In this document: positions 1,268 through 10,473 of the stretch, piece by piece
Layout: the number at the start of each line of letters is the position of its first letter
Position numbering within the stretch: position 1 is the first letter of the stretch
Virus record (IMG/VR): IMGVR_UViG_3300028361_000018
Origin: a virus
Lineage: Duplodnaviria > Heunggongvirae > Uroviricota > Caudoviricetes
Strand: one strand, 5' to 3'
DNA length: 27,924 nucleotides
Made by a program: the position numbers and the translations under genes
Notes under the pieces: model-generated
The model's database searches: none
Told to the model about the DNA's origin: nothing
What the model saw: the letters and a program-made list of their open reading frames with translations, nothing else

Positions 1268-1353
1268 ACCTCTGGTTCCTGACCGCAGCCTCCTAAGCTG
1301 TGTCTTAAAGTTAGGTGGATGGTTTTGAGGTTCGATTCCTCCCAGGGGTTCCA
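1268..1353 (+). tRNA. atypical tRNA-like gene, anticodon CCT (Arg), lacking a D-arm
   Basis: Acceptor ACCTCTG/CAGGGGT + T + CCA; arm GCAGC-CTCCTAA-GCTGT; T-arm GAGG-TTCGATT-CCTC; only 10 nt between acceptor and anticodon stems; 24-nt extra region. Confidence 0.7.
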
Positions 1354-1700
1354 AATACCCAGATACACAATTCATTGTGTATAGCATTGGCAACAGTGTT
1401 ATACACAATGCAGAGTAGACAAGTAGAGTAGCATAGCTAACAACTGGTCAGCCGAGAGTCAAGTAGGCAAAGTATGGCCGTGGTACCCGAAACACAAATG
1501 TCTTGACAATGGGTATTCAGGGATCGGATGCAATTATGCCGACCCAGTATACGGTAGTTTACGGTGGAAATCCGCTAAGTGGTTTGCGACCCAGCTGCAT
1601 TTTTAGTAGTTAGCACATTAGTTTAAAACATGACGGCTCGTAGATGTGTAAAGGGTACAAGGTCGCCGTCCTTCCTTGTACGCCGGACGATACCTAACCA
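1354..1700 (+). ncRNA. candidate large structured ncRNA between two tRNA genes
   Basis: No credible ORF; pairings 1354-1361/1510-1517, a 17-bp GCAA-capped hairpin 1373-1410, 1458-1463/1502-1507, 1436-1441/1609-1614, and a pseudoknot 1632-1681. Confidence 0.6.
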
Positions 1701-1713
1701 GCACCTTGTTATA

Positions 1714-1789
1714 GACGCGGTGGCAGAGAGGCTATGCACCGGATTGCAGCAATCCGTGAACGCCGGTTCGAATCCGGTCCGCGTCTCCA
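1714..1789 (+). tRNA. tRNA-Cys-like gene with a 9-nt anticodon loop (TTGCAGCAA)
   Basis: GACGCGG/CCGCGTC acceptor, U73 discriminator, CCA, GCA/TGC D-stem, GCCGG-TTCGAAT-CCGGT T-arm; loop is 2 nt longer than canonical TTGCAAA. Confidence 0.85.
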
Positions 1790-1841: not shown

Positions 1842-1862
1842 ATATTTTTAGTTAAGAAATAA

Positions 1863-1987
1863 TAGGGCCTCTAGATTACAACCGAGATTCTCTAGTTAAC
1901 CTTGCCTTAGGAGTCTAACTCCTTTGAAGCTGCTGGTAAAACCGTTAAATGCTTTCTCAGGCTTCGCAGTTGCACTAAAGGGCCCTA
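1863..1987 (+). ncRNA. candidate structured 5' leader / small RNA
   Basis: Closing stem TAGGGCCT(1863-1870)/GGGCCCTA(1980-1987) enclosing CTAGA/TCTAG, AGGAGT-cta-ACTCCT and GCTGC/GCAGT stems. Confidence 0.45.
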
Positions 1988-2021
1988 CCCTAAGTTAATC
2001 AACCAAAAAAGAGAAATTGTT

Positions 2022-3480: not shown

Positions 3481-3681
3481 ATGAGCAAAAGCAAGTATCG
3501 AAACGTGCATGTGGACGGCATCCTGTACAAGTACGTGGTCGGCAAGTCTTACGTAAAAATAGTAGGGCCCAACGGAAACGAACTGGTTGAAAGAACAGCA
3601 ATTTCTATAGAGACGTATTACGGAGAGCTGATTACAACACCCGGCATGATAGTTGCTTCTATGCAGTTGGTAAGGCTATAG
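3481..3681 (+). CDS. hypothetical protein, 66 aa (possibly the N-terminal part of a frameshifted gene)
   Basis: ORF track; RBS AGAGGA upstream. Confidence 0.7.
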   Translation: MSKSKYRNVHVDGILYKYVVGKSYVKIVGPNGNELVERTAISIETYYGELITTPGMIVASMQLVRL

Positions 3682-3860
3682 CGGATCAAGCAAAGGCTGG
3701 GGCCGTTGCAGAAATAAAGCGAAAGCAGGCCGAGGCTATCGAAGCGTTAACTGATGCCTCTGAAATTGCGCTGTGGCACAACCGAACGTTCGTCAAAGTA
3801 GACTGTATAGAGGGTGTTGCTCAACGTCTGCACAATGAAGCAGACAGTCAACAGACGTAG
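3591..3860 (+). other. 89-codon open frame with no ATG/GTG/TTG start, filling the gap before the next promoter
   Basis: Open between TGA 3588-3590 and TAG 3858-3860: ...FYAVGKAIADQAKAGAVAEIKRKQAEAIEALTDASEIALWHNRTFVKVDCIEGVAQRLHNEADSQQT*. Confidence 0.45.
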
Positions 3861-3965: not shown

Positions 3966-4538
3966 ATGAAAATTACACTACGAAAAGCACACGCACTGCA
4001 AGCAGCGTTAAACGAAGCTGCAAACAAGCTAGCGTTTACGAAAGAAGTTGCGCTGAACGAATTCGAACATCCGAGCTCGGTTATTGAAGCAGCCATCGAA
4101 AAATTCATCAGAGAAGAGTACCTGCGCAAGGAACTGTTAGACACGCTATATCTCCTACGAAAGAGTGTAGCACTGGCAAACGTTGCTGCTGGAGTAAACG
4201 AGATCTTAGCAGACGTTGCCCGAGCAGAAAAAGATATTAATTTTTATGCAATGTCTGAACAACTTAGTCCGAGACTAGCTAATGAGGTTATCAACGGAAA
4301 AGTTGGCAAGCTCAAGGAGCAACCGTCAGACACAGGTCGTTCACTATATGACCGAAGCGACAGTATTTCAACTAACATCTTTGATAAAGATGCGTTGGAT
4401 CAGATGAAACATGCACTGTCAACTGCAAAGAAAGAAAAGGTTCGTCTGCAGGATATGCTACTAGAAGCCAACATTAAAAACGAAGTTGAGCTAACGAAAG
4501 AACAAGTAGATGTATTACACGCAGCAGATTTGCTGTAA
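3966..4538 (+). CDS. hypothetical helical/coiled-coil protein, 190 aa
   Basis: ORF track; RBS AGAGG; amphipathic helical composition. Confidence 0.85.
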   Translation: MKITLRKAHALQAALNEAANKLAFTKEVALNEFEHPSSVIEAAIEKFIREEYLRKELLDTLYLLRKSVALANVAAGVNEILADVARAEKDINFYAMSEQLSPRLANEVINGKVGKLKEQPSDTGRSLYDRSDSISTNIFDKDALDQMKHALSTAKKEKVRLQDMLLEANIKNEVELTKEQVDVLHAADLL

Positions 4539-4973: not shown

Positions 4974-5408
4974 ATGGAACCTACACTGTACATTATCATG
5001 CGTTCAGACTTGCCCGATTGCAACCCTGGCAAGGGAATGGCAGCCGCCGCACACAGTCAGGCAGAGTTCAACGCTCACATAGAGTGGGCTAAAGAAAACA
5101 TAGTCGATTATGACGGCGCCGATTGTGACCGTAGTGTTGCGTTTAAAAACACAATAGCAGATTATGAAGAGTGGTGCGGAGATGGTACCTTTGGAAGGAC
5201 CATTGTATTGTCAGCTGATTTGGCTGTGATTAATGACATAGCAACGTATAATAACGTTTCCGGCAGCACTATAGACCCAACGTATCCGTGGAAAAACTTC
5301 TATGGAGAGCTGCAAGTCACAAGAGAGACTACCTGCGGCTGGTGTTTTGTTTCTGAAGGAATTCAAGAAGATCTAAAGCGGATAGAAAACCTGCCACTAC
5401 ACAAATAG
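4974..5408 (+). CDS. peptidyl-tRNA hydrolase type 2 (Pth2)-like protein
   Basis: LYIIMRSDL...NPGKGMAAAAHS matches the PTH2 N-terminal motif; IDPTYP at the C-terminal catalytic Asp position; ATG 4974 lies 7 nt after AAGGA. Confidence 0.75.
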   Translation: MEPTLYIIMRSDLPDCNPGKGMAAAAHSQAEFNAHIEWAKENIVDYDGADCDRSVAFKNTIADYEEWCGDGTFGRTIVLSADLAVINDIATYNNVSGSTIDPTYPWKNFYGELQVTRETTCGWCFVSEGIQEDLKRIENLPLHK

Positions 5409-5418
5409 GAAGGACGAA

Positions 5419-5889
5419 ATGTTAAAGCCAAACTTATATATGCTGATCGGAGTGCCTGGCTCAGGCAAGAGCACCTTTGTAGACGCGCAAGACCATAACT
5501 TTGTACATATCTCAACCGATTATTATGTTGAGAAGTTTGCTAAGAAAATGGGCAAGACCTATAATGAGGTGTTTAGCCTAACCATTAAACGTGCAGACCG
5601 CTTGATGATGCGAGCAGTCCGTCGAGCTCGAGAAAAAAGGCTGGACATTATTTGGGACCAGACCAACACAACAGCTAAGTCACGAGCCAAGAAGCTTGCT
5701 ATGCTACCAGAATATAACAAGACAGCATTATACTTTGAGACACCACCGGCTGATATCTTAGCAGAGAGATTGGCAAATCGCCCGGGCAAAGAGATTCCAG
5801 TCCGTGTGATGAAAAGTATGATTCAACACTTGAAAAAGCCTACCCTGGACGAAGGTTTTACTAAGATACAAGCGTTTACTACATTTTAA
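5419..5889 (+). CDS. P-loop kinase, polynucleotide-kinase/AAA_33-like
   Basis: GVPGSGKST Walker A, ISTD, IIWDQTN, RLANRPGKEIP lid. Confidence 0.85.
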   Translation: MLKPNLYMLIGVPGSGKSTFVDAQDHNFVHISTDYYVEKFAKKMGKTYNEVFSLTIKRADRLMMRAVRRAREKRLDIIWDQTNTTAKSRAKKLAMLPEYNKTALYFETPPADILAERLANRPGKEIPVRVMKSMIQHLKKPTLDEGFTKIQAFTTF

Positions 5890-6353: not shown

Positions 6354-6932
6354 ATGAAAACTAACAAAACAACAGAGAATACAGCAATGCGTACATTCAT
6401 ATCGTCTGATTTGCACCTGGGGCACCGAAATATTCAAAAGTTTTGTCCTAAGACACGCGGTCACTACACTGACGTAGATAACATGAACGAAGAAATGGTG
6501 CGTGAGTGGAACACTATGATCAACACAGACGACCTTGTGTACATCTTAGGTGATGTTGCGTTTATGCCAGCACCTAAGGCAGTTACATTCTTAAAGCGCA
6601 TGAACGGCCGTAAGATTCTCGTAGAAGGAAATCACGATCAGAAGCAGCTCAAGGACAACAGCTTTCGTGCCTGCTTTGAAGAAATTCACAAGTACCTAGA
6701 CATTCGTTACGCTGATCGAAAGATTGTGATGTTTCACTATCCTATCCATTTTGAATGGGATCAAGCGCATCGAGGATCAATTCACTTTCATGGCCACTTG
6801 CATGGAAGTCCGTCAGGTCTGGAAGGGCACCGAGCACGAGATGTAGGTTACGACGCCACTGGACAAATAGCAATGCTAATGGAAGACGCTATTGCTAGCG
6901 TTGCTAACGGTAAACTACCAGAACACCACTAA
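6354..6932 (+). CDS. calcineurin-like metallophosphoesterase
   Basis: SDLHLGH, LGDV, GNHD, FHYP and FHGHLH motifs. Confidence 0.9.
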
Positions 6933-9558: not shown

Positions 9559-10473
9559 ATGTCGTTTCAGGCACAATTAAAAGAGTACGTCCGAGATAAT
9601 CCAAAGTCGGTCTCGATGAAGCCGTGCGGTGACGGGATTTACATTCTTAAATATAAAAAATCTGTATTTTATAAAGGAACTTGGAATGAGTACCTTGAAG
9701 AGTGTCGCGGCACTATTGTTGACGAGGACTTTAACGTTGTATCTCGGCCATTTACTAAGATTTACAACTACGGAGTTGAAGCAAAATCGCCTATATTAGC
9801 AGACGACACTCCTGTTACTGCATACCGCAAAGTTAACGGATTTATGGTGGCAATGACATGGCACGACGATGATATTTTAGTATCAACTACCGGCAGTACA
9901 TCTAGCCCGTTTGTTGATTACGCAAAGGAAATTATGCTCAAGCACCAAAGCTGGTCAGCGTGGCAAGCCGCTATTAAGATGAACACAGGGTTTACGATGA
10001 TGTTTGAGTGTGTTCACCCAAACGATCCGCACATTGTACCAGAAGACGTAGGCATGTATCTGATCGGATGGCGCGCTAACACTTGGGATAGCCCAGCAAT
10101 AGGTTATGGCGGCGAAATTGCCAAGACTTGGAGAGAGTTTGCGCTTACTTGCTTGAGCTGCGGATACGCAGAATCGTTTGACACCACAGTAGGCGAGCTT
10201 GTGGCACTTAGTAAGACTGTAAAACACGAAGGGTTTGTCGCTTATACACAGGACGGGCAATCTTTTAAAATCAAAAGCCCCTACTACTTGGTTGCAAAAT
10301 ATGTGTCTCGCAACCCAAAAACAGACAAGTTATTGACGCAAAAAGCCAAGCAAATTGTATCCGAAGAGTACTATCCGCTAATCGACCACTTGCGCGGCAA
10401 CATCAATGCGTTTACTGTTCTTAGTGAGCAGGACCGTTTACAATATGTAAGAGAATATCTAGAAGCACAATGA
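9559..10473 (+). CDS. rnlA: RNA ligase, T4 Rnl1-like
   Basis: RPFTKIYN, YRKVNGFM (motif I), MFECVHPNDPHI (III), HEGFV (IV), FKIKSPYY (V). Confidence 0.8.
   Translation: MSFQAQLKEYVRDNPKSVSMKPCGDGIYILKYKKSVFYKGTWNEYLEECRGTIVDEDFNVVSRPFTKIYNYGVEAKSPILADDTPVTAYRKVNGFMVAMTWHDDDILVSTTGSTSSPFVDYAKEIMLKHQSWSAWQAAIKMNTGFTMMFECVHPNDPHIVPEDVGMYLIGWRANTWDSPAIGYGGEIAKTWREFALTCLSCGYAESFDTTVGELVALSKTVKHEGFVAYTQDGQSFKIKSPYYLVAKYVSRNPKTDKLLTQKAKQIVSEEYYPLIDHLRGNINAFTVLSEQDRLQYVREYLEAQ

What the first reader, a model, noticed from the sequence alone, without database searches (positions are those of the whole stretch)
1714..1789. tRNA-Cys with a 9-nt, self-complementary anticodon loop
The body is an intact tRNA-Cys (U73, CCA, good stems), but the loop is TT-GCAGC-AA, i.e. 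2 extra nt. This also makes CGGATTG-CAG-CAATCCG a 7-bp hairpin with a triloop. Engineered tRNAs with 9-nt loops can read 5-base codons. Alternatives are an anticodon-nuclease-resistant or decoy tRNA, a pseudogene, or an assembly slip at GCA-GCA.
Basis: partly seen in the sequence, partly recalled or inferred. Interest (0 to 1): 0.75.

Follow-up and report, generated by a model that had tools for sequence, protein, structure and literature searches.

The report
Phage tRNA-Cys with zipped 9-base loop
A small group of uncultured giant phages carries a spare cysteine tRNA gene whose anticodon loop has two extra bases; it is real, but it most likely arose as a DNA copying slip and spread with a selfish DNA-cutting gene that invades such tRNA genes, rather than being a natural five-letter-codon reader.

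Summary
The 9-nt loop (UUGCAGCAA, 1744-1752) is real. It recurs in a separate assembly and in five related phage contigs, one with the centre base flipped, and in no bacterial genome. The inserted GC completes a perfect 8-bp DNA palindrome, the mark of a template switch, and the RNA loop is predicted zipped shut. The same locus in sister phages holds a normal tRNA-Cys, a long-variable-arm tRNA-Cys, or nothing; a second, 7-nt-loop tRNA-Cys lies upstream. I found no five-base GCUGC target, no codon reassignment and no covarying codon, but only about 26% of the genome is held. In two carriers the gene heads an HNH homing-nuclease cassette whose family sits beside tRNA-Cys/Ala genes in 34 of 50 clusters, and the allele visibly moved between lineages with it. 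Best reading (0.5): a decoding-poor spare allele spread by homing or gene conversion. Rivals: nuclease decoy or resistant tRNA (0.25), five-base decoder (0.1). The scan earlier noted nuclease-plus-replacement-tRNA cassettes and enlarged-loop phage tRNAs on other DNA.

The parts
1714..1789 (+). tRNA-Cys-derived gene with 9-nt anticodon loop (the finding)
1744..1752 (+). 9-nt loop UUGCAGCAA; inserted GC at 1749-1750; centre A1748 is U in relative L170
1740..1756 (.). perfect DNA palindrome, 8-bp arms, 1-nt centre (template-switch footprint)
1629..1703 (+). conserved structured leader directly upstream (H-type pseudoknot plus a covarying hairpin); kept even where the tRNA is lost (L160), absent in L048
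1268..1353 (+). context: D-armless 8/4 tRNA-Arg(CCU)-like gene; the same position holds a canonical tRNA-Arg(CCU) in L124, L154, L155, L164, L168, L170
2423..3478 (+). context: Rnl2-type RNA ligase, used as the anchor to fetch relatives
4974..5408 (+). context: PTH2-like gene (motif recognised by eye, no Pfam hit); intact, with its own SD and ATG, so it needs no frameshift
5419..5889 (+). context: Pnk-like AAA_33 kinase; with a phosphoesterase at 6354-6932 and an Rnl1-type ligase at 9559-10473 it forms a likely tRNA-repair set

Best explanation
The gene is a real allele of a spare, dispensable tRNA-Cys locus of a giant-phage clade. Step 1 (inferred, strong): the anticodon arm of tRNA-Cys is a near-palindrome, and a template switch copied GC from the 5' arm into the 3' arm, making it perfect. 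The centre flip in L170 is the same process acting again. Step 2 (predicted, not shown): the RNA keeps its cloverleaf, U73 and CCA and is probably processed, but G34 is paired inside a 7-bp stem with a triloop, so it decodes poorly or not at all. Step 3 (shown): the phage carries a second tRNA-Cys(GCA) with a 7-nt loop about 3.6 kb upstream, and several relatives lack this locus, so loss of function is affordable. Step 4 (shown for L048/L119, inferred for the window): the allele moves between lineages by gene conversion, riding an HNH homing-nuclease cassette that invades tRNA-Cys/Ala genes. Step 5 (inferred, untested): the changed anticodon arm may also make the DNA resistant to that nuclease, which would favour the allele whatever the RNA does.
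For: The inserted bases are exactly those a template switch writes, and the only loop polymorphism is the palindrome centre; loop inversions and stem insertions of this kind are documented in PMC8794818. Loop zipped with P >= 0.95, against 0.00 for the G34 pair in 7-nt alleles. Second tRNA-Cys in G000/L149, L154, L155, L170, L171. Locus empty in L160, L161, L168, L153. An HNH gene (phrog_1271, E 1e-9) lies 41 nt behind the 9-nt tRNA in L048 and at the same place in L119, followed by a duplicated 31-nt 3' half. In its family 34 of 50 clusters at 70% identity are adjacent to tRNA-Cys(GCA) or tRNA-Ala(UGC): 35 of 67 adjacent tRNAs against 5% of the others. Several split a resident tRNA-Cys into a 5' and a 3' stub with the anticodon region missing. 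L048 vs L119: 5' flank 54%, tRNA 99%, 3' flank 97% identical, a conversion tract that starts at the tRNA. Window vs L150: 5' flank 99%, but the anticodon arm comes from the 9-nt lineage. The allele is scattered over the ligase tree, and the window's starred sister L150 has a 7-nt loop. No decoding target was found.
Against: No copy of this HNH family lies in the 92.6 kb held of the window's genome, and four of six carriers lack it at the locus. L124 and L170 could be the pre-invasion state, which would mean the loop gives no immunity. Most other HNH-adjacent tRNA-Cys genes keep a normal loop and spacing. All 209 stem cells pair, with four compensated pairs, which argues that the RNA shape is still selected, though some of these changes may predate the insertion. 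Folding energies ignore modifications and ribosome binding.
Confidence: 0.5

Rival explanations
1. The RNA is selected as a counter-defence: either a tRNA-Cys that host anticodon nucleases cannot cut but that still reads some Cys codons, or a zipped, uncleavable decoy that ties up a tRNA-Cys-targeting effector.
For: Every tRNA-Cys of the clade is odd in some way: 9-nt loop, long variable arm, or G-A instead of G-G in the D loop of the upstream copy. The tRNA-Arg(CCU) position alternates between a canonical and a D-armless form. The cloverleaf is fully paired. A likely RNA-repair set lies nearby. Precedents: phage anticodon-loop mutations against tRNases (PMC10264068); VapC4 cuts only tRNA-Cys (PMC13096801); enlarged loops can still pair as triplets (PMC5009743).
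Against: The host and its nucleases are unknown. The L170 allele loses the 5' GCA with no other change. Long-arm tRNA-Cys is common in phages generally. The locus is dispensable.
Confidence: 0.25
2. It is a natural five-base-codon (+2 frameshift) tRNA that reads GCUGC at a dedicated site elsewhere in the genome.
For: U33 precedes a 5-nt core GCAGC. Five-base decoding by engineered tRNAs is known but inefficient (PMC11122139). The genome is only about 26% held. Unchecked scan notes describe phage tRNAs with enlarged loops and dedicated four-base codons.
Against: 0 of 45 in-frame GCTGC sites are productive (0.6 expected) and none leads from a mini-ORF. No gene is split specifically in 9-nt carriers over about 20 kb of shared sequence. 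No GCTGC/GCAGC swap accompanies the flipped L170 loop in 4.1 kb. The PTH2-like gene is intact. Even 8-nt-loop tRNA-Cys gave too little product to characterise in E. coli (PMC9094753).
Confidence: 0.1
3. It is a young, neutral pseudo-tRNA from a mutation hotspot. It drifts and recombines, the HNH link is incidental, and the shape is kept at most as an RNase P processing mark for the upstream RNAs.
For: Hotspot origin, redundancy and dispensability as above. The five non-window alleles differ by only 1-4 nt.
Against: It occurs in at least four flank backgrounds, one of them demonstrably with the HNH cassette. No stem-breaking change was seen. The leader persists without the tRNA in L160, so it does not need it for processing.
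Confidence: 0.1
4. It is a missense tRNA. With the usual 5-nt 3' stack the anticodon is AGC (UGC in L170), both Ala anticodons, so Cys would be put at GCN codons.
For: The only variable loop base is the wobble base in this register. Precedents: the yeast mitochondrial 8-nt-loop tRNA-Thr (PMC3113583) and missense allo-tRNAs (PMC5389517).
Against: Position 33 would be C. 33 of 36 Cys-majority columns are TGY codons, and GCN aligns with Ala and CTG with Leu. Ala codons are 7% of the phage's own codons. The centre flip has a simple mutational cause.
Confidence: 0.04

Closest known systems
Phage T4/T6 SegB, free-standing homing endonuclease of tRNA clusters (PMC2330249; PMC13096335)
   Same: A nuclease gene inside a tRNA region that cuts tRNA genes of rival phages and converts the flanking tRNA alleles.
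   Different: The nuclease here is HNH-type, favours Cys(GCA)/Ala(UGC) genes (SegB shows no isotype preference), splits the resident gene, and is absent beside the window's own copy. Cleavage was not tested.
Natural tRNAs with enlarged anticodon loops: yeast mitochondrial tRNA-Thr1 (8 nt, PMC3113583), glass-sponge mitochondrial tRNA-Gly (about 9 nt) and unnamed phage tRNAs (review PMC5009743)
   Same: Conserved, otherwise normal cloverleaf with an oversized loop.
   Different: No reassigned codon or matching frameshift site was found here. The loop is a perfect palindrome predicted to zip shut.
Engineered or selected frameshift-suppressor tRNAs with 9-nt loops and five-base codons (PMC5009743, PMC11122139)
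   Same: Loop of 9 nt with U33 followed by a 5-nt core.
   Different: Natural, phage-borne, and without a detected five-base codon.
Anticodon-nuclease-resistant phage tRNAs (PMC10264068)
   Same: A phage tRNA whose anticodon loop differs from the host-type gene, next to Rnl/Pnk-type repair genes.
   Different: The passages I read describe loop mutations and never mention insertions. Here two bases are inserted and the loop probably closes.
Template-switch mutations in RNA hairpins (PMC8794818)
   Same: Insertion copied from the opposite stem half, and loop inversion.
   Different: Described for rRNA and miRNA, not for a tRNA anticodon arm.

Membership tests
bacterial tRNA-Cys | U73 discriminator and CCA end | tested here: met
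   1786-1789; invariant in 11 alleles; U73 and GCA are the main CysRS identity elements (PMC5389517)
bacterial tRNA-Cys | cloverleaf with paired stems | tested here: met
   100% of 209 cells paired, 4 compensated pairs
bacterial tRNA-Cys | GCA anticodon centred in a 7-nt loop | tested here: not met
   loop is 9 nt; GCA is present twice but predicted paired
bacterial tRNA-Cys | charged by CysRS and decodes UGY | not testable with these tools
   needs an assay; no phage CysRS in the 92.6 kb held
five-base-codon / +2 frameshift tRNA | 9-nt loop with U33 | tested here: met
five-base-codon / +2 frameshift tRNA | a dedicated in-frame GCUGC that joins two reading frames | tested here: inconclusive
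   0 of 45 productive in 92.6 kb, but only about 26% of the genome is held
five-base-codon / +2 frameshift tRNA | codon covaries with the anticodon | tested here: not met
   no swap in 4.1 kb around the flipped L170 allele; the rest of that genome is not held
enlarged-loop tRNA plus start-less PTH2 cassette (earlier AI notes of this scan) | PTH2-like gene lacks its own start and needs a shift | tested here: not met
   own SD and in-frame ATG at 4974 in the window; in-frame ATG and unbroken frame in L048
codon-reassigning enlarged-loop tRNA (yeast mt tRNA-Thr1 type) | another codon stands at conserved Cys positions | tested here: not met
   33 of 36 Cys-majority columns are TGY; CTG aligns with Leu, GCN with Ala
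SegB-like homing cassette in a tRNA gene | nuclease gene adjacent to the tRNA, with a duplicated tRNA stub | tested here: inconclusive
   met in L048 and L119; not met in the window, L117, L124, L170
SegB-like homing cassette in a tRNA gene | co-conversion of the flanking tRNA allele | tested here: met
   L048 vs L119 tract 54% / 99% / 97%
SegB-like homing cassette in a tRNA gene | nuclease cuts rival alleles but not the carried allele | not testable with these tools
   needs a cleavage assay
nuclease-resistant phage tRNA | loop differs from the host-type gene | tested here: met
   37 prophage-type loci have the same arm with a 7-nt loop; 0 bacterial genomes with the 9-nt form
nuclease-resistant phage tRNA | resists a host tRNase and still decodes | not testable with these tools
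   host unknown; needs an assay

The most novel reading that the evidence does not exclude
The tRNA is a natural five-base-codon reader (GCUGC; GCAGC in the L170 lineage) serving a +2 shift in a gene that lies in the roughly 74% of the genome not held. To my knowledge no natural quintuplet decoding has been described.
Probability: 0.1. Interest if true: 0.92.

Novelty: new variant of a known kind. Interest (0 to 1): 0.45.

Why it matters
Natural 9-nt anticodon loops are rare, and I found no description of this one in the searchable papers. If the best reading holds, it shows that DNA-level conflict (homing nucleases plus palindrome slips) can shape phage tRNA anticodon loops. That is a caution for reading odd phage tRNAs as code changes or anti-defence tools. 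The locus also offers a natural allelic series (normal, long arm, two 9-nt loops, deleted) and a matching HNH for direct tests. tRNA finders mislabel these alleles as Leu(CAG) or Gln(CUG). If it did read five bases, it would extend the known limits of natural decoding.

Tried and rejected
Assembly slip: rejected. ARAGORN's Leu(CAG) label: rejected, the body is Cys-type and CTG aligns with Leu, never Cys. Relatives have one intact ORF of about 112 aa with an unrelated C-terminal half, 9-nt carrier L119 continues in frame past this point, and the window's second frame has no homologue beyond the overlap. PTH2 cassette model: rejected; the break in L119's PTH2-like gene lies at a footprint shared with L167 and has no GCTGC. 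Idea that long variable arms are a spacing immunity to the HNH: not supported, 7 of 22 adjacent vs 4 of 8 non-adjacent, p 0.42. Two-base intron removed by a nuclease and repaired by the phage ligases: considered; it needs a precise double cut 3' of A36 with no precedent known to me, and single-base excision at the wobble position would not give GCA; not testable here. Leader-peptide attenuator reading of 1630 onwards: substitutions are mostly synonymous but there is no SD, and the 3' hairpin covaries as RNA; left open. Wider pattern scans for other 9-nt Cys loops gave only chance matches or 7-nt loops read in a shifted register. Two scans of bacterial genomes gave 0 hits, so no host was identified. 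No cultured close relative was found (best topoisomerase match 36-37%). Several classic papers were not held.

Full report
Observation. The window is part of a 92.6-kb virus record, about 26% complete by CheckV. It encodes topoisomerase, DNA ligase and two RNA ligases and has no close cultured relative. Positions 1714-1789 form a complete tRNA (Rfam 47.5 bits) with U73 and CCA. From the D arm to the T loop it closely matches a bacterial-type tRNA-Cys carried by 37 prophage-type loci (I recall this as the Pseudomonas gene, which no tool confirmed). The loop differs by GC inserted after GCA. The arm 1740-1756 is a perfect palindrome with 8-bp arms. ViennaRNA gives the extra pairs a probability of 0.95 or more at 37 C and 0.99 or more at 20 C. 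In 7-nt UUGCAAA alleles the U-A pairs already form in part, so only the G-C pair is new.

It is not an artefact. A separate assembly is identical. Pattern scans and ligase-anchored look-ups found five more carriers: L048, L117, L119, L124 and L170. L170 has the loop UUGCUGCAA, the reverse complement of the window's loop. No bacterial genome among 185,579 matched the 9-nt pattern.

The locus is an allelic series. Behind the same conserved leader, L154 and L164 hold a normal tRNA-Cys. L150/151, L155 and L171 hold one with a long variable arm. L160/161, L168 and L153 hold none. A second tRNA-Cys(GCA) with a 7-nt loop lies further upstream in the window's genome (C1 87970-88043, about 3.6 kb from this gene) and in L154, L155, L170 and L171. 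Across 11 alleles all 209 stem cells pair, and four pairs show changes on both sides. The window's closest relative by ligase (L150, 95%, starred node) has a 7-nt loop, while carriers of the 9-nt loop lie at 66-72%. The allele has therefore moved sideways.

Origin. A template switch in a near-palindrome writes exactly the inserted GC, and an inversion of a perfect palindrome changes only the centre base. Both patterns are documented for RNA hairpin genes (PMC8794818). This step is inference, but it explains both the insertion and the only loop polymorphism.

Decoding tests. Codon use is standard. CTG aligns with Leu, GCN with Ala, and 33 of 36 Cys-majority columns are TGY. No in-frame GCTGC leads into a longer +2 frame (0 of 45, 0.6 expected), and none does so from an SD-led mini-ORF. 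No gene is split only in 9-nt carriers within the shared 20 kb or so. The candidate at 3481-3860 is a truncated gene fused to unrelated DNA. The PTH2-like gene has its own start. In 4.1 kb shared by L170 and L124 the only GCTGC/GCAGC swap is the loop itself. These tests cover about a quarter of the genome.

The nuclease link. In L048 and L119 a 216-249-aa HNH gene follows the 9-nt tRNA and is followed by a second copy of its last 31 nt. Relatives of this protein in 79 other viral loci fall into 52 clusters. Of the 50 with tRNAs nearby, 34 sit next to tRNA-Cys(GCA) or tRNA-Ala(UGC), whose loops share TGCA. That is 35 of 67 adjacent tRNAs against 5% of non-adjacent ones (the clusters are related, so the nominal p of 8e-28 overstates the case). 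Several split a resident tRNA-Cys, with 5' stubs ending in the D arm or anticodon arm and 3' stubs starting at the T arm. This points to a cut in or near the anticodon arm. L048 shares tRNA and cassette with L119 (99% and 97%) but not the 5' flank (54%), which is a homing tract that carried the 9-nt allele. The window has L150's leader and D arm, the 9-nt arm, and has lost the downstream gene, which fits repair from a 9-nt donor. The window's genome fragment has no copy of this HNH. Whether the insertion protects the DNA from cutting is untested, and L124/L170 may be either pre-invasion or post-excision alleles.

Mechanism and odds. Best reading, 0.5: a decoding-poor spare allele born by template switch, tolerated because a second tRNA-Cys exists, and spread by homing or conversion, perhaps because it resists the nuclease. 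Shown: sequence, conservation, redundancy, dispensability, transfer with the cassette in one case. Predicted: zipped loop. Inferred: poor decoding, immunity. Rival 1, 0.25: an RNA selected against host tRNases, as decoy or resistant decoder; the oddness of all Cys and Arg(CCU) tRNAs of the clade and the repair genes favour it. Rival 2, 0.1: five-base decoder with an unseen target. Rival 3, 0.1: neutral pseudo-tRNA. Rival 4, 0.04: Ala-to-Cys missense tRNA.

Comparison and novelty. It works like a SegB-converted tRNA allele (PMC2330249) but is not itself such a cassette in the window. It looks like an engineered five-base tRNA but fails the target tests where they could be run. A review lists only a few natural enlarged loops (PMC5009743), and my searches found no report of this one. 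Earlier AI notes of this scan describe similar nuclease-plus-tRNA cassettes and other enlarged-loop phage tRNAs on other DNA; I used them as leads only. Verdict: new variant of a known kind, interest 0.45.

Noticed in passing
window 1268-1353: D-armless 8/4 tRNA-Arg(CCU)-like gene. It alternates with a canonical tRNA-Arg(CCU) at the same position in relatives and has a homologue with anticodon UCU, also Arg, in cultured Nitrincola phage 1M3-16 (L052 about 3995-4075, unannotated). This suggests a working tRNA of new shape that can be tested in a cultured phage.
   Followed up: partly
window 1629-1703: Near-invariant pseudoknot-plus-hairpin RNA, kept even where the tRNA is lost (L160). It has no Rfam match, and most substitutions are also synonymous in the ATG frame at 1630.
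   Followed up: partly
window 1354-1620: Large structured RNA conserved in L048, L124, L150, L153-L155, L160, L164, L168; longer in L048 and L124; no Rfam match.
   Followed up: no
window 1862-1990: Gene-free element behind an 11/12 sigma-70 promoter (1813-1841), conserved in most relatives; possible small RNA.
   Followed up: no
L187-L266: HNH family with strong preference for tRNA-Cys(GCA) and tRNA-Ala(UGC) genes, often splitting the resident gene and carrying a replacement. Homologues occur in cultured jumbo phages such as Cronobacter phage GAP32 and Serratia phage BF.
   Followed up: partly
L150 3754-3836, L155 5681-5765, L171 3584-3666, and 11 distinct genes in L188-L266: tRNA-Cys(GCA) with a long variable arm is common in large phages.
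   Followed up: partly
G000 C1 87970-88043 (outside the window): The upstream tRNA-Cys has G-A instead of G-G in the D loop and U instead of C at T-loop position 56; relatives have A there.
   Followed up: no
window 3481-3860: Truncated copy of a 112-aa gene that is intact in relatives, joined to unrelated DNA at about 3660.
   Followed up: yes
L119 6130-6150 and L167 4570-4590: The PTH2-like gene is interrupted at the same codon by a shared short footprint, probably another mobile element.
   Followed up: no
L128, L129, L146: Viral tRNA that reads either as CUA (amber) with a C-A mismatch closing the stem or as a 9-nt Arg loop.
   Followed up: no
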